In this document: piece by piece, positions 1 to 33,520 of the stretch
How positions within the stretch are numbered: the first letter of the stretch is position 1
How the letters are laid out: every line of letters starts with the position of its first letter
Source of the DNA: Candidatus Thorarchaeota archaeon
GTDB lineage: Archaea > Asgardarchaeota > Thorarchaeia > Thorarchaeales > Thorarchaeaceae
DNA: 64,000 nt
Assembly (NCBI GenBank): GCA_046758445.1
Contig: JBHIAE010000006.1
Span: forward strand, 1-64,000
Reading direction: 5' to 3'
The notes under the pieces: model-generated
What the model was told of the DNA's origin: nothing
What the model saw: only the letters and a program-made list of their open reading frames with translations
Database searches by the model: none
Program-made: the position numbers and the translations under genes

Positions 1-1009
1 GATCCTAGGGGAGTTCAGATTTCTCAACACCCGGAAGGGATTCACCAAGCTTCTCGGGGTCATTGGAGCAAGACCAGCCAAGGCGGTCATTGAGAGCACT
101 GGAAACCTGTGGCTCAGGCTGTTCCTGACTCTGGAGAAGAATGGTGTGGAGGTCATCCTCTCCAATCCCTCGAAGACGAAGGCGATTGCTGAGGCCAGAC
201 TGAAGAGTGACAAGGTTGATGCTGCCATGCTCGCAGACCTGTTGAGGGCTGACCTGGTGGCTCCGTGCTATGTGCCCCCTGCCGAATTGAGAGATGTCCG
301 TGAGCTGACTCGTGTGAGGATGAACCCGGTGAGGGATAGGGCTAGAGTCAAGAATCGAATCCACGCGCTCCTTGACAGGTGTGATGTTCCACGATATCCC
401 GGAAGCACTCTGTGGGGGAAGGCTGGCATCAAGTGGCTGAACGCCTTAGAGCTGCCCACAGCTGAAGGCTTCATCCTACAGACCTATCTCAGTCAGATCG
501 ATGCCCTCACCAGACTCGTAGAGGATGTGGAGGAAACCATTGCTCAGATTGCTGTGGAGGACGAGAGGGTCAGGCTCCTGATGACCATTCCCGGAGTCGA
601 CTACTATGTTGCCATGCTGTTTGTCAGTGAGATTGGTGACATAGACAGGTTCCCGAGATCAAGCAAGCTCACCAGTTGGCTTGGTCTTGCACCGAGGGTC
701 AGTCAGAGCGGGGAGAAGTGCTATAATGGAGCCATCACCAAGATGGGCTCTCCAAGGGTCAGATAGGCACTGGTTCAGGTGGCTCACTCAGGAGTGAGAT
801 ACGATGATCACTTCCAGAAGAATTCCAGGAGGATAAACGAGAGAAGAGGCAAGTCCAAGGTCTATGTGGCTGTCGCAAGAGAGATTGCTGTGGCGTGTTT
901 TCACATGCTGAAGAAGCGAGAGCCATACAGGTTCATGAAAGATGAGCTCGTGAAGACAAAGTATAAGAGATTGGAGAAGGTAGCAAATAGCCCTCTATGC
1001 GCTGGATAG
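1..1009 (+). pseudogene. IS110-family transposase (5' end outside window), interrupted by in-frame TAG at 764-766
   Basis: Frame open from nt 2 (VIESTG, KSDKVDA DEDD-type motifs), then TIPGVD, WLGLAP..SQSG, G.ITKMGS. ORFs 146-766 and 779-1009 share a frame: GSPRVR*ALVQVAH, where the family typically has W. Confidence 0.9.
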
Positions 1010-1060
1010 TTCCGACACATCTGGACCTTCGGTCCTGTGACTGTCAGCGGTTTTTCATGG
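1..1060 (+). mobile_element. IS110-family insertion sequence, right part
   Basis: Transposase plus short non-coding end with GGAC-cTTCG-GTCC hairpin (1023-1035) and TTTTTCATGG near 1051-1060. Exact end is inferred. Confidence 0.7.
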
Positions 1061-1092
1061 AAGCTTAAATCGTCCCTTCCAGACATAGGGGC

Positions 1093-1398
1093 ATGACAGC
1101 ACTACAAGATGTACGGAACCGCGTTCAGAGGGCTCTTGAGAGGGCCAAGAAACGCGATGGGCCACTTGATTTTCGCGGCATTTCGGTGAAGCAGATCACA
1201 GACCCCGATGACTTCTCCGTGAGGTTCCTCGTGACGAAGGACTCAGGCATCATTGATGATGAACTGAAGAGGGAGTTCGGCTCCGTGTTGGACATTGCCT
1301 GCTCTGAAACCGATGGTCTTCCAGAGGATGAGGGCGTCTGGTCTGACGAGAACGGCTTCCACGAGTACGCGGCAATCGTAGGACTTCTCTACTTTTAG
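1093..1398 (+). CDS. hypothetical protein
   Basis: 101-aa ATG ORF, protein-like composition, TATA-like CTTAAA upstream. Confidence 0.6.
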   Translation: MTALQDVRNRVQRALERAKKRDGPLDFRGISVKQITDPDDFSVRFLVTKDSGIIDDELKREFGSVLDIACSETDGLPEDEGVWSDENGFHEYAAIVGLLYF

Positions 1399-1536
1399 TC
1401 CTGATTAACAAAAATCGACGTAAAAACAACGAAAACCATGCAAGAAGCCGTCTTGGGTGCGAAGAGAGGAAAAGAAAGGAATGATGTCGACTGGTGTACG
1501 ACTCAACGTTACTAGGATTAGCCGCGAAGAGAGAGA

Positions 1537-1612
1537 TGGTAGCCCCGCCAGGACTCGAACCTGGGTCCAGCGGGCCAGAACCGCTGATGCTTGACCGCTA
1601 CACCACGGGGCT
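1537..1612 (-). tRNA. tRNA-Gln(CTG), CCA encoded
   Basis: Reverse complement AGCCCCG-TGGTGTAGCGGTCAAGCAT-CAGCGG-TTCTGGC-CCGCTG-GAC-CCAGG-TTCGAGT-CCTGG-CGGGGCT-A-CCA forms a cloverleaf with anticodon CTG. Confidence 0.97.
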
Positions 1613-1769
1613 TTTACTTCGAAACAACCGCCTCGAGTCTACGGCACTCTGGGAGCCCCAAATTACCTTTTCGGTCAAATTCCTGTTTCCTTGAGCAGCT
1701 TGAACGGTATAGATGACTGGCTAACCGGACGGACATAGCTCTGCGATTGATCCACTCTGCTTCTGTTCT

Positions 1770-2678
1770 CTATATACCAATCTTGAATATGATAGCATCG
1801 CGAAGCATTCTCTGCATCATCCGAAGGAGGTTCTTCCCCTCTGTGGCAATGGTTGGAAACACTGGATACCCTTCCAAATCCAGCATCTGAATCATACGAT
1901 CGACGGGCATGGCATTGGGAAGGTCTCTCTTGTTGAGCGACACAATGACTGGGAGTGTTGCCATTCTGTCCGTTCCCAACGCGATGCGTAGCTCCTGAAT
2001 GGAGGCCAAGTTCTCATTCATCATCTCAGGTGCAGAGTCAGCCATGAATATCAGGCCGTCAACACCTCTGAGGACATTGATTCGTTGTGTAGCATGTCTT
2101 CGCTGTCCAGCAACTGTAAAGACATCAAAGACAATTCGTTCGCCTGCAGAAACTGGAATGAAGTCGAAGTAGGTGGTTCGTCCGAGCTCATCAGATATCT
2201 CAACAATCCTACCTTTGGACAAGGCTCGAACGTTGGCAAACAACCATCTCAACGCGGTCGTCTTGCCAGAGAGAGACGGCCCGTAAAAGACAATCTTGAT
2301 GCGAATGCGACCTTCTTCGTCACGACGTAGGTCCACTCCGGGAACTATCTCAGTCACGCGTCTGGGATGTATCCGGGCAGCCTTCGCAATGTTGGAGGTT
2401 GCCTCCGCATCAATCCTTAGTTCAGCAGAGGATGCAATGAGGGTTCCTGCGGGGATCGGTTCACGCCTACCAACTCTGGGCGTTTCACGTGGGGCCCGAA
2501 ATGGCTCGCCAGGCTCGGTAGAAACAGCTTCGGGGGGCGTTGTTTCCCGCGGTAATGTTGTTACCTTGGCTGCATGCTCATCGCTAACGCCGGGGGCCGC
2601 TTCTGGACGCTCTTCTTTTTCAGGCTCTTCCTTCTTCGCTCGCCTAAATCGCGACCTTAGCCTCCTAAGCATCGGCAA
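1770..2678 (-). CDS. MglA-family small GTPase with N-terminal basic/low-complexity extension
   Basis: KIVFYGPSLSGKTT, GRTTYFDF, TVAGQ, LRGVDGLIFMADS, NKRDL are MglA signature motifs. Confidence 0.88.
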   Translation of the reverse strand: MPMLRRLRSRFRRAKKEEPEKEERPEAAPGVSDEHAAKVTTLPRETTPPEAVSTEPGEPFRAPRETPRVGRREPIPAGTLIASSAELRIDAEATSNIAKAARIHPRRVTEIVPGVDLRRDEEGRIRIKIVFYGPSLSGKTTALRWLFANVRALSKGRIVEISDELGRTTYFDFIPVSAGERIVFDVFTVAGQRRHATQRINVLRGVDGLIFMADSAPEMMNENLASIQELRIALGTDRMATLPVIVSLNKRDLPNAMPVDRMIQMLDLEGYPVFPTIATEGKNLLRMMQRMLRDAIIFKIGI

Positions 2679-2778
2679 CCGCTCTCTGAGGATTTAGGGA
2701 TATCTTGGCGGACTTAAATCTTGGGGGGATAATCTCCGCAGTGACCTTTATCTGATGGTGGTAGTTCGAGGGTCTACC

Positions 2779-26124: not shown

Positions 26125-27888
26125 TCATTCATCCTTGCCGTCTTTCGACTTCTTACCGGAAGCCTCCTGTGAGATACGCTCGAGAATATCATCAATCTCC
26201 GTAATAGCTTCTTGATCAATTACGTCAAGCGTAGCTGTAGTGCTTGGCTCTTCGTCAGGCCCCAATCTTTCAATCTCACCCAAGAATAGAGAGAGCTCTC
26301 TCATGGTTTCCTCGTCAAGTTCCGGCTCAATGTCAGGGTCGGCATCAGTTGCGACCACCTCGTTGTGGGAGAAGGCTTCCAGAGCCGTATCTAGATCTTC
26401 CTTTGACACCTTCTCAATCTCAGCGCCGACAAACTCGTCAGCCTCAAGCGCTTCAAATATCAACTCGATGGCCATCTTTCGTCCCCCATCTTCGGTCGAG
26501 AGTACTTCTATGTCGGCGGGTTCTTCCTCGGCTCCGTCAACTGATACTTCGACTGTTTCGACTTCCTCAGTCGAAACAGGTTCTTCGGGTTCATCGATGG
26601 CCTCTGCAACTACATCATACGCATCTGATTCGGCGACAACTGGTACTTCTGTTGTAATCTCAAACTCAGCAGATTCCTCTTCTACCTGAGCTGTAGCAAC
26701 TTGCTCTACTGTGGTGATCTCTTCAGAGACTTCGATGTCAACAAGCTCTTCTTCATCAGAACTCTCAACCGTTACCTCAACTTCCTCTGGTTCTGCCACA
26801 TCAGACTCCATTACGTCGCCAATCTCTTCGATTACTTCCTCTACAACCTCGTAGTCGCCGACATCTTCAATCACATTGCCATATTCATCAACAAGTACTT
26901 CTTCCACGACTTCGACTGTTTCATATTCTTCAGCAAGCTCTTCTTCACGTGCACGCGCCATTGCATCCACTTCTGCAATGGCCTCCTCGGTGGCTTTGTC
27001 GGTGAAACTCAGAAGCTGTGACGTCGGTAGATCTGGAAGAGCAACTCCGACATAGGTTGCGGCAGCATTCATCAGGATCCTCAACATCTCATCCCGACGA
27101 CCCTTGTCAATGGCAACCATCGGATAAGTAGGAACCCCAAGTATCTTCTGCACGACCTCTGGCTTCATCACGTTAGGCTTGTCTTGCTTGTTGGCAATTG
27201 CGAAGAGGGGCACCTTCGGAGCATCTCTTCTGATGAGCTTGAGAATGTCCTTGCTGATTATGACGTTGCGGAGTGAAGAATCGCATACAAGAAAGATAAC
27301 ATCCGCACCGTGGAAGTAGAATCGCCACAGTTTTCTGAATCGTTCCTGACCTGCGAAATCCCACAGGACTAGAGAGTAGTTCCCAAAACGAATGTTCTCA
27401 ACAGTCTCAAGATTCAGTGCAATAGTTGGCACATACTGAGTGGGAGGCGTTTCTCCAAGAAGGAGATGAAGTGTCGTGGTCTTCCCGACACCGCCCTCCC
27501 CGACAAGTGCTATCTTCAGCTTTGTAATCACGGAAGATTCAATGACGGCCTCATAATTGTCTAGCAAGCTCTCGAAGCCAGAGCTTGATATCTTTCTCTT
27601 GATGCTGGATGTGCCGTCCTTCAGCTTGTCAGCGAGGACTCTCTCGTCTTCGCCCATATCGCTAACATAGACCAAGAGAACGTCTTGAACCACCTCTCTG
27701 CTCATGAATTTGTCATCTTCAATCACAAGGGCTAGCTCGGCCGTATCGTTTCCGGAGGCTGACTGTATCTCACGACGTGTAGAAAGGAACTCCTCGACCG
27801 CCTCCCAAGGGACCTCAATAGGCCAGTATGAAGACGAGGCAAGAAGATCACCCGTAGATATGCGGACTAGATACGTCGCGATTATCAA
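26125..27888 (-). CDS. longin-like domain + Arf/Rab-like GTPase + long acidic tail
   Basis: GEGGVGKTT, YVPTI, WDFAGQERFRKLW, ANKQD; about 120-aa N-terminal alpha/beta domain; about 290-aa Glu/Val-rich tail. Confidence 0.88.
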   Translation of the reverse strand: MIIATYLVRISTGDLLASSSYWPIEVPWEAVEEFLSTRREIQSASGNDTAELALVIEDDKFMSREVVQDVLLVYVSDMGEDERVLADKLKDGTSSIKRKISSSGFESLLDNYEAVIESSVITKLKIALVGEGGVGKTTTLHLLLGETPPTQYVPTIALNLETVENIRFGNYSLVLWDFAGQERFRKLWRFYFHGADVIFLVCDSSLRNVIISKDILKLIRRDAPKVPLFAIANKQDKPNVMKPEVVQKILGVPTYPMVAIDKGRRDEMLRILMNAAATYVGVALPDLPTSQLLSFTDKATEEAIAEVDAMARAREEELAEEYETVEVVEEVLVDEYGNVIEDVGDYEVVEEVIEEIGDVMESDVAEPEEVEVTVESSDEEELVDIEVSEEITTVEQVATAQVEEESAEFEITTEVPVVAESDAYDVVAEAIDEPEEPVSTEEVETVEVSVDGAEEEPADIEVLSTEDGGRKMAIELIFEALEADEFVGAEIEKVSKEDLDTALEAFSHNEVVATDADPDIEPELDEETMRELSLFLGEIERLGPDEEPSTTATLDVIDQEAITEIDDILERISQEASGKKSKDGKDE

Positions 27889-28116: not shown

Positions 28117-28478
28117 ATTTGGGACGCAGAGGTTCGCACAGGCGATCCTCCGCATCCGTCGGGCCTTCAAGCCGGACGCACGCAGAAATCGGTTTGCGCA
28201 AGTATTGTTTGCAAGGGGATTCATCCTCTCGGAAGCGAATGTTCCGAGAGTCCAATGCTAGAACTCGTAATAGGGACCGTGTGTTGTGAATGCGAGTTCT
28301 TGTGACGGGGAAGTCGTACGTCCTGCTCATTTACGAAGGCAGCCTACCCCGGGTGGGGTATGCAGGATGTCGAGAGCTCTTACGGCATATGAAGCTTTCT
28401 GGTTCCCGAAATTACGAAACGATACTTCATTGAGCGTTAACGCGGTCAAAAAAGAACCTCTGCGCAGTTCTACCAAAT
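28117..28478 (+). ncRNA. unassigned large structured RNA candidate (about 360 nt)
   Basis: Nested helices 28125-35/28454-64, 28200-10/28417-27, 28226-34/28242-50, 28260-69/28291-300, 28306-11/28403-08, 28319-26/28362-69, 28345-50/28355-60; G-U pairs favour the + strand. Confidence 0.7.
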
Positions 28479-29808: not shown

Positions 29809-30480
29809 TCAGGTTGAAGTATCCTGGGCTCTGTGCTTCCTTATAAAATCAACAACACGCGTGTACACTTCCGATACTACCTCTTCCAGCTCATTTGTAG
29901 CATCTATAACTGTGAAATTACCCAAATCTTCTGCTGCCATCTCAAGATATGCCTGCCTGACCTTTGCCAATCGATCATGTTTCTCGAATTGTACGTTCAA
30001 ACTGCCTTCACGTGCTGCAGCAATCCTTGCCAGTCCCACCTCTACTGGGACATTGAGCAAGAACACAATGTCCGGTTCTGGAGCGCCGATCTCTTCCCTG
30101 TTTCGCCGTACGATTTCACTCCAATGCAGCCCAGTGCTCGTTGATTGGTAGGCACCGGCGGCAAAGAAGTATCTGTCCATGAGAACTATCTTCCCTGCAG
30201 CAAGTGCTGGCTTAATCCTATTCCGAATATGCCATTCTCTGTCCCGCATGTACAACTCAAGTTCTTCGCTTGGCGTGAGCTCGCCACGCGGTGTACGCTC
30301 CCTTATCTCCTTGCCCCAAGGACTCTCGCTAGTTGGCTCTCTGAGGCGTACTACATCCCTGCCTTCGTCGGCTAGAAGCTCAATGAGTCTATCACAGACC
30401 ACCGTCTTGCCAGCACCATCGATCCCCTCTAGCACAAAGAGGAGACCGCTTCTCCGAGGACTCTCAGATACCAACTTCAC
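29809..30480 (-). CDS. tmk: thymidylate kinase
   Basis: EGIDGAGKT, REP, MDRY..AYQ, PDIVFLLNV. Confidence 0.95.
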   Translation of the reverse strand: MKLVSESPRRSGLLFVLEGIDGAGKTVVCDRLIELLADEGRDVVRLREPTSESPWGKEIRERTPRGELTPSEELELYMRDREWHIRNRIKPALAAGKIVLMDRYFFAAGAYQSTSTGLHWSEIVRRNREEIGAPEPDIVFLLNVPVEVGLARIAAAREGSLNVQFEKHDRLAKVRQAYLEMAAEDLGNFTVIDATNELEEVVSEVYTRVVDFIRKHRAQDTST

Positions 30481-30612
30481 TGTTCTCCTTCTGCGAGAGT
30501 CTAGAAGTTCCCCCTTCATATAGGTAATGGGTCATTCGCTCAGACAAGGATGAGAAACGACTGTGGAAGCATCGGAAAAGAGGTACGAAGAGAATCATAC
30601 AATGTTTATTAG

Positions 30613-30876
30613 GATGGGGCCACTCTGTTCAAACGAGGACCTCAAGGGGAAATCAAACCATCCCAGCGTGGACACGTGAGGCGATAAATCGGAAGGGCAT
30701 CCCCCTCCCATGTAACAAACTGCGATAGCGACTTGCGTCCATTCGGGTGAAGCTTGAGCGTCCCCGAGACGAAACCGCGTTCGTTCGTTCTTTGGGTCCC
30801 CTGTATAGGGGGGCCAAGGTCCCCTTGCAGAGTTCTCATGCCCCCGATTCGTTTAATCACGTGTCCCGGTCCCATC
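30613..30876 (+). ncRNA. unassigned structured RNA candidate (about 240-260 nt), rod with branched apex
   Basis: Helices 30613-21/30868-76, 30670-79/30857-66, 30687-92/30844-49, 30695-700/30838-43, plus apical hairpins; G-U pairs favour the + strand. Confidence 0.65.
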
Positions 30877-30912
30877 AGCTTGGACGGTAAGGCTTATTAC
30901 TTGGCGGAGTCG

Positions 30913-30934
30913 TAGGATAGGTTAACCTATCCTA
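30913..30934. promoter_or_regulatory. perfect 22-bp palindrome TAGGATAGGTTAACCTATCCTA, probable repressor operator
   Basis: Lies between TATA-like CTTATTA (about 30893-30899) and the ATG at 30950; resembles DtxR-type boxes. Confidence 0.7.
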
Positions 30935-30949
30935 GGACGTTGATGATGA

Positions 30950-31474
30950 ATGATGTCCTCGAGAATCCCGTTGTTGCTCGTGTTTCTCTTGGCAGTCATT
31001 CCCAATCATACGGTTGGACTGGTGACTCAGCCTCAGATGCAATTCACAAATGCTTCGAGTAACATCTCACTCGAGATCGACTTCGGCAACGGTACAACTA
31101 CTGAACACGTTGGTCTGACTGGAAACACGGTCCTCAACGTGACAGAGTCTGAGTTTGAAGTTGAGGTCAGTTGGTATGGAAACTTTGCTTTTGTGGAAAG
31201 TATCGCTGGGGTGACGAACGACCAGGGTGAAGGACTCTGGTGGCAGTATTGGGTGAATGATGAGTATGGACCCGTTGCAGCAAACGTATACGAGGTTCAA
31301 GACGGTGATGCAATTATCTGGCGGTACACCAGTTCACAGGTCGAGGGGCACGGAGGACAGAATCCAGACAGGTTTCCACTCTATGACCAATCTACCCTAT
31401 ATGGTGCCGCGATTCTGGCGGCCCTGGGATTTGGATTTCTAGGGATTCTCTACATGACGAGAAGAAAGAGTTGA
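30950..31474 (+). CDS. DUF4430 (transcobalamin C-terminal-like) membrane-anchored binding protein
   Basis: Signal peptide, IDFGNG, FVESIAGV.N, WWQYWVN, AANVYEVQDGD.I.WRY, C-terminal TM. Confidence 0.85.
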   Translation: MMSSRIPLLLVFLLAVIPNHTVGLVTQPQMQFTNASSNISLEIDFGNGTTTEHVGLTGNTVLNVTESEFEVEVSWYGNFAFVESIAGVTNDQGEGLWWQYWVNDEYGPVAANVYEVQDGDAIIWRYTSSQVEGHGGQNPDRFPLYDQSTLYGAAILAALGFGFLGILYMTRRKS

Positions 31475-32235
31475 AGATGACAATGAGAGGACGCTCAATG
31501 GCTGTAGCTTGCCTAATAGGTTGCCTGCTGGCCGCATTAGTGGTCGCATCTCCAGCAGGGTACAATGAGATAGTGGCACCAAAGGAATGGGGAAACACAG
31601 TAATAACTTGGACAGTCCTCGACAGTCCAGATGCGGCGTTCGCTCTCTGGTGGTCAGGAACAGGAGCATGGTTGGCAGACCAAGGAAGTGAGATGACCTT
31701 CAATGTGACAGGCGTGGGGGAAGATATCGAAGGTGTGCTGACGCTGGGAAACATGACATGGTCTGCTAATGACACATTCATCGCAATGGACTTGGCACTC
31801 AGTGTATGGGGACTCACTCCATGGCTGCCAGGTCTTGTGGTGGCAGTTGGAGTAACCAACCTTGATGAGCTAAACGCAACAGCCTACGAAGCTGCAGCGA
31901 GAGTACCTGGAAACTTTCTAAATGGCACAATCACATCATCCTATGAAACGGTGACTGTAAGTGAAGTTGCATATGACTGCCTAGTCTTTGAGTACGAACA
32001 GGACCCACCAGTGTTTGGAGAGCCTCAAATTACGTATCTTGCGTACGACACTGTAACTGGCGTTCTGGTGATGGCAAATACAAGCTTCTCCTTCGGAACT
32101 CCCTACATTCTAACACTTGAACTTGACTCGATTGTGATTCCTATGACTCCAATCAATGGGTTTCAAGTGTGGGTTGTATTAGTCGGTGCAGGGATTGTTA
32201 TGATTGTCGCAGTAATTGCTCTCAGAAGAAGGTAG
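31471..32235 (+). CDS. secreted, C-terminally anchored hypothetical protein
   Basis: Signal peptide, YDTVTGVLV, C-terminal TM followed by RRR. Confidence 0.75.
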   Translation: MKMTMRGRSMAVACLIGCLLAALVVASPAGYNEIVAPKEWGNTVITWTVLDSPDAAFALWWSGTGAWLADQGSEMTFNVTGVGEDIEGVLTLGNMTWSANDTFIAMDLALSVWGLTPWLPGLVVAVGVTNLDELNATAYEAAARVPGNFLNGTITSSYETVTVSEVAYDCLVFEYEQDPPVFGEPQITYLAYDTVTGVLVMANTSFSFGTPYILTLELDSIVIPMTPINGFQVWVVLVGAGIVMIVAVIALRRR

Positions 32236-32253
32236 GACAGACCCTAAGGTGAT

Positions 32254-32850
32254 TTGATGGATACTCATGGAGAGCTAAACATCAACCGTAGTAAGCGGGT
32301 ATCCATCATTGCGATGATGACGGCTCTCGCACTTGTCGGCAATTACACGTTGGTCATGATTCCTAACGTAGAGCTTGGCTCCAGTATTCTTTTCGTGACA
32401 TCCTATATCTTTGGCTTCAGCATCGGTGCGTCTTGCGCTGTAATCATGGCAATTGTCTTCGGCTCGATAAATCCATGGGGAATTCCTATTCCGGAGATCC
32501 TAATCACGCAGATCCTGGGATGGTTGTACATAGTAGCTGCAGGCAGTCTTATGGGAACCAACCAGAAACTAAGCAAGACAACGCATGTGGATGTCTTGCG
32601 ACTGGGTGCAGCAGGGGTCTTCCTGACGCTCTTCTTTGAACTGCTTACGAATTTCGGCTATGCCATAGCGTTTGGCCTTCCTTATTGGGTCACTATTCTT
32701 ACCGGCATCCCATTCACAGTCGTTCATGTTGTTTCAAATGCAATAATCTTTGCAGCAGCAACACCTCGACTGGACAATATCATAAAGACCCAGTTTGAAT
32801 CTTACATTTGGGAAACCAGCGTGGAAGTCGGGCTCTTGAGCGAAGAATAA
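32254..32850 (+). CDS. ECF transporter S component (CbrT-like, cobalamin)
   Basis: AMMTALA (AxxxA), IPNVE, GIPF..HVVSN. Confidence 0.8.
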   Translation: MMDTHGELNINRSKRVSIIAMMTALALVGNYTLVMIPNVELGSSILFVTSYIFGFSIGASCAVIMAIVFGSINPWGIPIPEILITQILGWLYIVAAGSLMGTNQKLSKTTHVDVLRLGAAGVFLTLFFELLTNFGYAIAFGLPYWVTILTGIPFTVVHVVSNAIIFAAATPRLDNIIKTQFESYIWETSVEVGLLSEE

Positions 32851-32890
32851 AAGGACACACTATGTAAAACATCGTGGAGCGTAGATTCGA

Positions 32891-33520
32891 TTGTCATGGA
32901 AGGACGAGTTCATCCAGCTCTCTGAAACCGCGGAAGGCAGAGTTGCCCCAGCCTTCAAACCGCATCATGCAGCAGTGGCGTTGGTTCTCATTGGACGAGA
33001 AGAGCCTCTTGGCAGATACGAACTGAATCAGAACTTGTCCGTGGGCGAGGGCAGTGCGCGAACTCTTCTCAAGCGACTCACTGATGCAGGATACATCTCA
33101 CCCGAAGGAAAACAAGGACAGAGGCTTACATCAAGGGGGCGCACTCTCTTTGAAGCCTTCTCCCGAGACGTTCCACTTGGCCTGTTTTTGGAGGTTCCTG
33201 GCCTCGTTATGTATCAAGAAGCCTTTGCAAACCTAGTCAAGAGTAAGGGTGCTTTCCTACGAGATGGAATCAGACAGCGAGATGAGGCCATAATTCAGGG
33301 GGGCTACGGCAAAGCAGGAGCTACTTCTCTGGTGATGAGGGACGGCCTTCTTGTCATGCCCCCGGACAACTTCCAGCCTCTTCCGGAGTACGAGAAAGAA
33401 ACACTCTTGATCCTTGACAGTCTGAGACCTGAGGAGAATGACGCAATTGTTCTCGGCTCGGCTGACAATCGAAACATGGCACGTGAAGTCTCAATGGCGG
33501 CCGTTATGACTCTCTTCTGA
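32891..33520 (+). CDS. wHTH / DUF4443-type putative regulator
   Basis: LGRYEL..L.VGEGSARTLLKRL, GIRQRDEAI..G..GAT. Confidence 0.8.
   Translation: MSWKDEFIQLSETAEGRVAPAFKPHHAAVALVLIGREEPLGRYELNQNLSVGEGSARTLLKRLTDAGYISPEGKQGQRLTSRGRTLFEAFSRDVPLGLFLEVPGLVMYQEAFANLVKSKGAFLRDGIRQRDEAIIQGGYGKAGATSLVMRDGLLVMPPDNFQPLPEYEKETLLILDSLRPEENDAIVLGSADNRNMAREVSMAAVMTLF

What the first reader, a model, noticed from the sequence alone, without database searches (positions are those of the whole stretch)
30613..30876. Second unannotated structured RNA, upstream of a putative cobalamin-uptake operon, with alternative pairings
Seen: a long rod (four stacked helices) with a C-rich bubble (CCCCCTCCC) and a three-hairpin apex. 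The 5' segment CAAGGGGA (30643-50) can alternatively pair with TCCCCTTG (30820-27), and GGACCT with AGGTCC. The canonical B12-box and SRP helix-8 motifs are not evident. Inference: either a new archaeal riboswitch-like leader or an independent ncRNA, since the operon appears to have its own TATA at about 30893.
Basis: partly seen in the sequence, partly recalled or inferred. Interest (0 to 1): 0.7.

Follow-up and report, generated by a model that had tools for sequence, protein, structure and literature searches.

The report
New structured RNA in Thorarchaeota
This is a real, previously undescribed folded RNA of about 200-235 bases, found in only a few genera of Thorarchaeota (Asgard archaea); it has its own promoter and sits just upstream of a nutrient-uptake operon, and it looks like a sensor-type regulatory RNA whose ligand and mode of action are still unknown.

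Summary
Window 30635-30866 (+) encodes a structured RNA. A rod of four helices covaries strongly: 22 of 38 tested pairs show compensatory changes, 90.7% of cells are paired against 26-42% in slid controls, and 0 of 500 shuffles reach this. The rod closes a nearly invariant multi-branch core, and a 5' GGGGA motif is complementary to an invariant junction motif (a candidate pseudoknot).

It is not a known family. It matches nothing in Rfam 15, here or in 11 homologous loci. The genome's SRP RNA and RNase P RNA lie on other contigs.

A conserved TATA box sits about 25-30 nt upstream of the conserved 5' end.

The RNA is single-copy. It was found in 27 of 86 genomes (6 of 16 genera) of one Thorarchaeota family and in none of 125 other Asgard genomes. 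It always lies between tmk and the operon's own promoter (TATA plus a palindromic operator).

The operon occurs without the RNA in ten genera. In three genomes the RNA persists where the transporter genes lie elsewhere.

First-stage notes of this scan flagged the same element in at least six other genomes.

The parts
30600..30611 (+). Promoter of the RNA: conserved CAATG followed by the TATA box TTTATTA (30605-30611)
   Evidence: Homology with relatives begins here. Every lineage has a TATA-like box about 22-30 nt upstream of the conserved 5' end, although the spacer sequences differ.
30635..30866 (+). Predicted structured ncRNA (232 nt here; about 200 nt in relatives). The 3' end is not mapped and may lie up to about 30 nt further.
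   Evidence: CM hits R1 30634-30869 and R2 core 30680-30853. Covariation. The G-U pairs in the helices would be A-C mismatches on the other strand, and the + strand folds better.
30644..30650 (+). 5' strand of the candidate pseudoknot (AAGGGGA)
   Evidence: A GGGA core is conserved near the 5' end in all lineages. Contiguous complementarity to the junction motif is 7-10 nt in most lineages. In g7 and g9 the motif lies in a hairpin loop.
30670..30684 (+). 5' strands of helices P1 (30670-79) and P1b (30680-84); partners are 30857-66 and 30849-53
   Evidence: Compensatory changes at most pairs.
30688..30700 (+). 5' strands of helices P2 (30688-92) and P3 (30695-700); partners are 30844-48 and 30838-43
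   Evidence: 97.5% of cells paired and 8 of 11 pairs with changes on both sides, across all six genera.
30701..30719 (+). C-rich conserved joining region ending in the CCCAUGU motif
   Evidence: Invariant in g1, g9 and g15. UCCCAUGU is kept in g7 and replaced in g6.
30720..30788 (+). Inner arm: CUGCGA, two GCGA/UCGU segments and a UUGCG/CGCG hairpin. It includes the genome-specific 32-nt hairpin insertion at 30741-30772.
   Evidence: Nearly invariant, so the pairing register is unresolved. The hairpin tip varies in length and sequence in g7. The insertion is absent from all 26 other copies and folds as an extension of the arm.
30794..30815 (+). Variable GC-rich hairpin (P6)
   Evidence: The sequence differs between genera while a hairpin is kept; it is absent in g6.
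30817..30837 (+). Most conserved motif of the RNA: the 3' strand of the pseudoknot (30820-26) followed by UUGCAG and AGUUCU
   Evidence: Nearly invariant in all 27 copies. It was used as the search pattern.
30838..30866 (+). 3' strands of P3, P2, P1b and P1
30893..30934 (+). The operon's own promoter: TATA-like CTTATTA (30893-99) and a perfect 22-bp palindrome (30913-34), probably an operator
   Evidence: Conserved in genomes with and without the RNA, at the same place before the DUF4430 gene. The perfect palindrome is unique in this genome.
30950..33520 (+). Downstream operon: DUF4430 surface protein, 254-aa surface protein, ECF-type S component, and a wHTH/DUF4443 (PH0730-like) putative regulator
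   Evidence: Pfam; signal peptide and C-terminal anchor; PH0730 relative; conserved gene order.

Best explanation
A genuine, previously undescribed structured RNA is transcribed on the + strand from its own TATA promoter (TATA 30605-11, start near 30635) and ends shortly after 30866.

Its fold is a long rod of four covarying helices. The rod closes an almost invariant multi-branch core. A 5' GGGGA motif that pairs with the invariant junction motif locks the core as a pseudoknot. Peripheral helices that drift by compensation around a frozen core are the signature of an RNA that binds a small ligand or a protein.

The proposed mechanism is inferred, not shown. The RNA and its promoter form a second, upstream control module placed in tandem before the operator-controlled promoter of the uptake operon.
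- When the folded state forms, transcripts end in the T-rich stretch that follows the rod.
- Otherwise RNA polymerase reads through the second TATA and the operator into the downstream genes, which adds an RNA-sensed input to the protein repressor.

The ligand is unknown. A corrinoid is suggested only by the DUF4430 domain and the ECF S component.
For: Shown:
- Fold better than shuffles.
- Covariation: 22 of 38 pairs compensatory, 0 of 500 shuffles as good, and slid controls at 26-42% paired against 90.7%.
- Strand: G-U pairs fit only the + strand.
- A TATA box at a conserved distance upstream of the conserved 5' end in every lineage.
- The core is nearly invariant while the neighbouring proteins are only 40-65% identical.
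- The 5' motif has 7-10 nt of complementarity to the invariant junction motif in most lineages.
- Single copy at a fixed place and in the same orientation as the downstream genes in 27 genomes.

Consistent with action in cis:
- The upstream neighbour changes in two genomes, yet a same-strand gene follows the RNA in every locus examined.
- In G012 an SBP_bac_5 gene follows the RNA with no clear TATA between them.
- In three g7 genomes the wHTH/DUF4443 gene follows the RNA directly.
- The g1 copies have no T-run of 4 or more between the RNA and the second TATA, so read-through is likely there.
Against: - A complete, conserved promoter plus operator lies between the RNA and the first start codon. 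It is the ancestral operon promoter, present in RNA-less genera. The RNA is therefore not in the 5' UTR of transcripts started there.
- The operon works without the RNA in ten genera.
- Three genomes have a second copy of the transporter operon with the operator but no RNA.
- No conserved alternative structure (expression platform) was found downstream of the rod.
- The rod is long and stable, unlike a typical switching P1.
- T-runs of 4-5 follow the RNA in the g7, g9 and g6 loci, which fits a stand-alone RNA gene equally well.
Confidence: 0.4

Rival explanations
1. It is a stand-alone, lineage-specific ncRNA gene. The RNA is made from its own promoter, ends at the T-rich stretch before the second TATA, and acts in trans, for example as a ligand-sensing small RNA or as a partner or decoy of a protein such as the neighbouring wHTH/DUF4443 regulator. 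Under this reading its position next to the operon is inherited synteny.
For: - It has its own TATA at the right distance.
- The operon keeps its own promoter and operator.
- T4-T5 runs lie shortly after the RNA in g7, g9 and g6.
- The RNA is retained and well conserved (103-129 bits) in three genomes where the transporter genes are at another locus that lacks the RNA.
- The operon is present without the RNA in ten genera.
Against: - g1 copies have no clear terminator before the second TATA.
- No target or protein partner was identified.
- The RNA never moved away from this one locus or changed orientation in any genome.
Confidence: 0.35
2. It is a self-cleaving or otherwise catalytic RNA. The 5' strand pairs with an internal junction while the rod pairs with the 3' end, giving a nested double-pseudoknot topology that loosely recalls HDV-like ribozymes. 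Cleavage would occur just 5' of the GGGGA helix.
For: The topology is inferred. The extreme conservation of the junction nucleotides would fit a catalytic core.
Against: - No Rfam ribozyme model matches at E up to 10 or in 11 homologues at E up to 1.
- The helix sizes and the two hairpins before the pseudoknot's 3' strand do not fit the HDV-like layout.
- The predicted leader 5' of the helix is only about 10 nt, so cleavage would have little to remove.
Confidence: 0.05
3. It is a highly divergent cobalamin riboswitch.
For: The context is a DUF4430 domain protein plus an ECF S component, families that from my own knowledge are often under B12 riboswitch control in bacteria. The RNA also has a multi-helix junction with a long-range loop contact.
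Against: - No match to the cobalamin or AdoCbl-variant models, even at E up to 10 or in 11 homologues.
- No B12 box is visible.
- The helix layout is different.
Confidence: 0.05
4. It is not an RNA: either a protein-coding gene (the 77-aa ORF at 30642-30875 on the minus strand) or only protein-binding DNA.
For: An ORF of 77 aa spans the region on the minus strand.
Against: - The ORF has no Pfam match.
- It is split into different frames in relatives, and the 32-nt indel breaks it.
- Substitutions are compensatory for RNA pairing, with G-U pairs on the + strand only.
Confidence: 0.02

Closest known systems
Cobalamin riboswitch (Rfam RF00174; AdoCbl-variant RF01689)
   Same: It lies upstream of and on the same strand as genes of a putative corrinoid uptake system (DUF4430, ECF S component). 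It is a multi-helix junction with highly conserved joining nucleotides and a long-range loop or pseudoknot contact.
   Different: No covariance-model match, even at E up to 10. No B12 box. The helix arrangement is different. A full promoter and operator lie between it and the first gene. It occurs in Asgard archaea only.
Orphan riboswitch candidates and structured leader motifs found by comparative genomics (e.g. Weinberg et al. 2017, PMC5737381)
   Same: Covarying peripheral stems surround an invariant core. It is intergenic, upstream of transporter genes, narrowly distributed, and has no known ligand.
   Different: It is not in Rfam 15 and is archaeal. It has its own promoter in tandem with the operon promoter, and it is retained where the transporter genes have moved away.
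Riboswitch-containing trans-acting small RNAs (the EutX/Rli55 type of Enterococcus and Listeria; recalled from my own knowledge, not tested)
   Same: This would be the model if the RNA is a stand-alone sensor RNA encoded next to the genes it influences.
   Different: There is no sequence or structural relation, and no ANTAR-type or other partner was identified here.
HDV-like self-cleaving ribozymes
   Same: A nested double-pseudoknot topology: a 5'-terminal strand of about 7 nt pairs with an internal strand, and an outer helix pairs with the 3' end.
   Different: It is much larger, with two hairpins before the internal strand and no P4 equivalent. There is no model match, and catalysis was not tested.
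Archaeal SRP RNA and RNase P RNA
   Same: Similar size class (200-300 nt), rod-like parts, and its own promoter.
   Different: Both are present elsewhere in this genome: SRP RNA at C20:50319-50630 and RNase P RNA at C1:76870-77208. This RNA matches neither model and is missing from most genera of the family.

Membership tests
Archaea_SRP (RF01857) | Match to the covariance model (helix 5 rod, helices 6 and 8, Alu domain) | tested here: not met
   No match in the window. The genome's only match (83.7 bits, E 4e-19) is on another contig, C20:50319-50630.
RNaseP_arch (RF00373) | Match to the covariance model (the CR-I to CR-V core) | tested here: not met
   No match in the window. The genome's RNase P RNA is at C1:76870-77208, 175 bits.
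Cobalamin riboswitch (RF00174 / RF01689) | Match to the covariance model, including the B12 box | tested here: not met
   No hit at E up to 10 on 30450-31000, nor at E up to 1 in 11 homologous loci.
Cobalamin riboswitch (RF00174 / RF01689) | Binds a corrinoid | not testable with these tools
   Needs in-line probing or ITC.
Riboswitch (generic) | Conserved structured domain with covarying helices and conserved junction nucleotides | tested here: met
Riboswitch (generic) | Lies in the 5' UTR of the regulated gene, between its promoter and its start codon | tested here: inconclusive
   It lies between an upstream TATA (30605-11) and the genes. However, a second conserved TATA plus operator (30893-934) intervenes, and that is the only promoter in RNA-less relatives.
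Riboswitch (generic) | Expression platform with mutually exclusive structures | tested here: inconclusive
   The 5' GGGGA/junction pairing is compatible with the rod as a pseudoknot. A GUCC/GGAC hairpin after the rod is kept only in one subclade of g1. T-runs follow the RNA in some genera only.
Riboswitch (generic) | Ligand binding that changes gene expression | not testable with these tools
Independent archaeal ncRNA gene | Own BRE/TATA promoter at about -24 to -30 from the 5' end | tested here: met
   TATA-like boxes sit at a conserved distance in g1, g9, g15, g7 and g6, despite unrelated spacer sequences. This is a sequence inference only.
Independent archaeal ncRNA gene | Defined 3' end or terminator (T-run) before the next promoter | tested here: inconclusive
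   T4-T5 runs are present in g7, g9 and g6 loci. They are absent in g1 apart from the T-rich second TATA itself.
Protein-coding gene (ORF 30642-30875, minus strand) | Reading frame conserved in relatives | tested here: not met
   tblastn matches are split between frames, and a 32-nt indel breaks the ORF. No Pfam family matches.

The most novel reading that the evidence does not exclude
This would be a new riboswitch class specific to Asgard archaea: an RNA that senses the substrate of the DUF4430/ECF uptake system (possibly a corrinoid or another cofactor). By read-through from its own promoter it would override or supplement the protein repressor at the operon's operator.
Probability: 0.25. 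Interest if true: 0.8.

Novelty: new variant of a known kind. Interest (0 to 1): 0.6.

Why it matters
Few structured regulatory RNAs are known in Archaea, and my searches of Rfam 15 and of the paper library turned up none described as specific to Asgard archaea. Here a roughly 140-nt core is nearly invariant across genera whose neighbouring proteins are only 40-65% identical, so the selection acts on the RNA itself.

If it binds a metabolite, it would be a new aptamer class. It would also be an example of RNA control and protein-repressor control stacked at tandem archaeal promoters. If it acts in trans or with a protein, it would be a new archaeal RNP or regulatory RNA.

Either way it supplies a defined target for experiment: 5' and 3' ends to map, a short list of ligands to try, and a neighbouring wHTH protein to test. 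It also gives a covariance-model seed for annotating Thorarchaeota genomes.

The value is limited by the narrow distribution (27 uncultured genomes) and by the lack of expression data.

Tried and rejected
- **Rfam at gathering thresholds** on the whole window: 0 hits.
- **Rfam at E up to 10** on 30450-31000: only three chance-level hits, namely CRISPR-DR10 on the minus strand over the GC hairpin, a Tetrahymena snoRNA and a frameshift element.
- **Rfam at E up to 1** on 11 homologous loci: nothing at the RNA.
- **SRP RNA and RNase P RNA**: rejected because both are elsewhere in the genome.
- **Minus-strand 77-aa ORF**: rejected.
- **tRNA or tmRNA**: none here.
- **Mobile or viral origin**: the conserved 17-mer has one chance hit in viral contigs, and that hit does not match the model. 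The RNA is single-copy in every genome.
- **Metagenome scan**: five more g1-like copies and four chance hits, so it added little diversity.
- **Whole-collection pattern scan**: found the same Thorarchaeota genomes plus chance hits in bacteria.
- **Tree of tmk + DUF4430 + p254**, built to ask whether RNA-bearing genera form one clade: the deep branches are unresolved. One origin is neither shown nor excluded.
- **Regulon of the palindrome**: only this one perfect site in the genome; weaker matches are below the control count (one search used the wrong spacing).
- **Inner-core pairing**: CUGCGA with UUGCAG, GCGA with UCGU, and UGUAA with UUGCA all remain possible, because the sequences are almost invariant and the g6 variants point in different directions.
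- **Literature searches** found no description of this RNA.

Full report
**1. What is there**

The region 30613-30876 lies between a divergently transcribed thymidylate kinase gene (29809-30519, minus strand) and a plus-strand operon. The operon encodes:
- a DUF4430 protein (30950-31474);
- a 254-aa protein with no family (31471-32235);
- an ECF-type S component (32254-32850);
- a PH0730-like wHTH/DUF4443 protein (32891-33520).

The first two proteins have a signal peptide and a C-terminal membrane anchor.

The stretch folds better than shuffles on the + strand (-105.4 kcal/mol, z = -3.76, 0 of 200 shuffles) and less well on the minus strand (z = -2.29).

**2. It is not a known RNA**

- Rfam 15 gives no hit at gathering thresholds in the whole window.
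- At E up to 10 on the region it gives only three chance-level hits.
- At E up to 1 it gives nothing at the element in 11 homologous loci from five genera.
- The genome's SRP RNA is on contig 20, and its RNase P RNA is on contig 1.
- The 77-aa ORF on the minus strand has no family. It is broken into different frames in relatives, and a 32-nt indel disrupts it.

**3. Relatives and distribution**

DNA search, then two covariance models, found the element as a single copy in 27 of 86 species-level genomes of the window's family, in 6 of 16 genera.
- R1 is the full-length model.
- R2 models the 139-position core and includes the most divergent copies.
- The four genomes of the same genus without a hit are 62-81% complete.

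None was found in 125 genomes from 26 other families of the phylum. Record titles of the matching public contigs name Candidatus Thorarchaeota, which are Asgard archaea. A metagenome scan added five copies of the same genus. Viral contigs hold none.

**4. Ends and promoter**

Homology starts at about 30595 and includes CAATG followed by TTTATTA (30605-11). The next 23 nt are not conserved. Conservation resumes at a pyrimidine-G step followed by AGGAC at 30634-40.

The other genera have different TATA-like boxes, but at the same distance from the conserved 5' block. From general knowledge of archaeal promoters (TATA centred near -27), the transcript should start near 30635.

The last conserved pairing ends at 30866. 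The true 3' end is unknown.

**5. Structure**

Four stacked helices form a rod:
- P1: 30670-79 with 30857-66
- P1b: 30680-84 with 30849-53
- P2: 30688-92 with 30844-48
- P3: 30695-700 with 30838-43

On a 26-sequence alignment:
- 90.7% of cells are standard pairs, against 26-42% when partners are slid by 1-3 columns;
- 22 of 38 pairs have changes on both sides;
- no shuffle of 500 reaches the observed covariation score.

P2 and P3 covary across all six genera. P1 covaries within g1 and g9 and is replaced by other arrangements in g7. Frequent G-U pairs fix the strand as +.

Inside the rod lies a core of about 100 nt that is almost invariant:
- a C-rich joining strand ending in CCCAUGU;
- CUGCGA;
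- an arm built from two GCGA/UCGU segments and a terminal hairpin;
- a variable GC hairpin;
- the motif GGUCCCCUUGCAGAGUUCU, the most conserved part of the RNA.

Because these sequences hardly vary, the pairing of CUGCGA is unresolved. It could pair with UUGCAG or within the arm.

The 5' GGGGA motif (30646-50) is complementary to UCCCC (30820-24), giving 7-10 contiguous pairs in most lineages. The flanking C/U changes opposite G are compatible with pairing. In g7 and g9 the motif sits in the loop of a small hairpin. I read this as a pseudoknot, supported by conservation but not by true covariation.

This genome alone carries a 32-nt insertion (30741-72) that extends the arm hairpin.

**6. Context, and the test of whether it tracks with the uptake genes**

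In all loci the RNA points the same way as the downstream genes. Between the RNA and the first gene lie a second TATA-like box (30893-99) and a perfect 22-bp palindrome (30913-34).

The same TATA-plus-palindrome unit stands directly upstream of the DUF4430 gene in genera that lack the RNA. There the tmk-DUF4430 spacer is only about 110-330 nt. The operon is present in 76 of 86 genomes and in all 16 genera.

The operon promoter and operator are therefore ancestral, and the RNA with its promoter is an add-on upstream of them, or was lost many times. A tree of three neighbouring proteins is unresolved at depth and cannot decide between these. The perfect palindrome is unique in the genome, which suggests a local, probably autoregulatory, operator for the wHTH protein.

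Rearrangements are informative:
- **Three g7 genomes.** The DUF4430-p254-ECF genes lie at a second locus that has the TATA and the palindrome but no RNA. The RNA stays at the old locus, in front of a degenerate palindrome and the wHTH/DUF4443 gene, and it remains well conserved there.
- **G012.** An SBP_bac_5 solute-binding protein gene is inserted between the RNA and the second TATA, with no clear TATA of its own.
- **G024.** A PAS histidine kinase gene is inserted there.
- **G023.** The copy lacks its 5' half and looks like a relic.

**7. How it most likely works**

Shown: a conserved, structured, + strand element with a promoter-like signal, a frozen core and a drifting periphery. That pattern indicates specific binding of a ligand or protein.

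Inferred: I favour, narrowly (0.4), a sensor module that acts in cis. Transcripts from the upstream promoter would either stop in the T-rich stretch after the rod or read through the second promoter and the operator into the downstream genes.

In favour of this:
- orientation and adjacency to a downstream gene are kept through several rearrangements;
- g1 has no T-run between the RNA and the second TATA;
- the G012 arrangement fits it.

Against it:
- the operon promoter is intact;
- the operon exists without the RNA in ten genera and at the second locus in g7;
- no conserved expression platform was found;
- T4-T5 runs follow the RNA in g7, g9 and g6.

All four points against fit a stand-alone RNA gene (0.35). 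A ribozyme reading and a divergent cobalamin riboswitch are each unlikely (about 0.05).

The decisive data are transcript ends and ligand tests.

**8. Novelty**

No paper found in the library describes this RNA, and Rfam 15 has no model for it. First-stage notes of this scan flagged the same element in at least six other genomes, all unchecked. Their leads were examined here: the CUGCGA/UUGCAG helix, the GGGGAC/GUCCCC complementarity, and identical promoter 12-mers on both sides in some species.

It is a new RNA family of a familiar general kind: a structured, probably regulatory RNA beside a transporter operon. The setting is unusual, with tandem archaeal promoters in Asgard archaea.

Noticed in passing
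window 30913-30934: A perfect 22-bp palindrome lies just downstream of the operon's TATA. It is conserved before the DUF4430 gene in genomes with and without the RNA, is the only perfect copy in this genome, and occurs as two tandem copies in one g7 genome. It is probably the operator of the wHTH/DUF4443 protein encoded at 32891-33520.
   Followed up: partly
window 30741-30772: A 32-nt insertion found only in this genome extends the arm hairpin of the RNA. It partly repeats the preceding GCGUCC, so it may have arisen by local duplication.
   Followed up: partly
L139 (G012:C12) 725-2767, minus strand: In one species of the same genus, a 680-aa SBP_bac_5 solute-binding protein gene is inserted between the RNA and the operon promoter, in the same orientation and without an obvious TATA of its own.
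   Followed up: partly
L140 (G024:C1:349600-353000) 426-2636: In a g9 genome, a PAS-PAS-PAS histidine kinase gene is inserted between the RNA and the DUF4430 operon.
   Followed up: no
L145, L146, L147 (G022, G066, G070): Three g7 genomes carry the DUF4430-p254-ECF S genes at a second locus, two of them with a DUF4443 paralogue as well. That locus has the TATA and the palindrome but no RNA.
   Followed up: partly
L144 (G023:C1:93450-93850): The g8 copy of the RNA lacks the 5' half (the pseudoknot strand and the 5' strands of the rod) and has an internal duplication in the arm. It is probably a decaying copy.
   Followed up: no
G000:C20:50319-50630: This genome's SRP RNA scores 83.7 bits, below Rfam's gathering score of 96.5, so automatic annotation would miss it.
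   Followed up: no
window 28117-28478: Another first-stage note reports a second unannotated structured RNA of about 360 nt here. It gave no Rfam hit at gathering thresholds and does not match the models built for the present RNA.
   Followed up: no
L032, L028, L030, L027, L026 (g1 species G009, G015, G011, G005, G014): In these species the same 12-mer containing the TATA box (CAATGTTTATTA) stands both upstream of the RNA and upstream of the operon. The RNA's promoter therefore looks like a duplicate of the operon's promoter.
   Followed up: partly
window 26125-27888, minus strand: A 587-aa protein with an Arf/Roc/Ras-type small GTPase domain, a eukaryote-like signature typical of Asgard archaea.
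   Followed up: no
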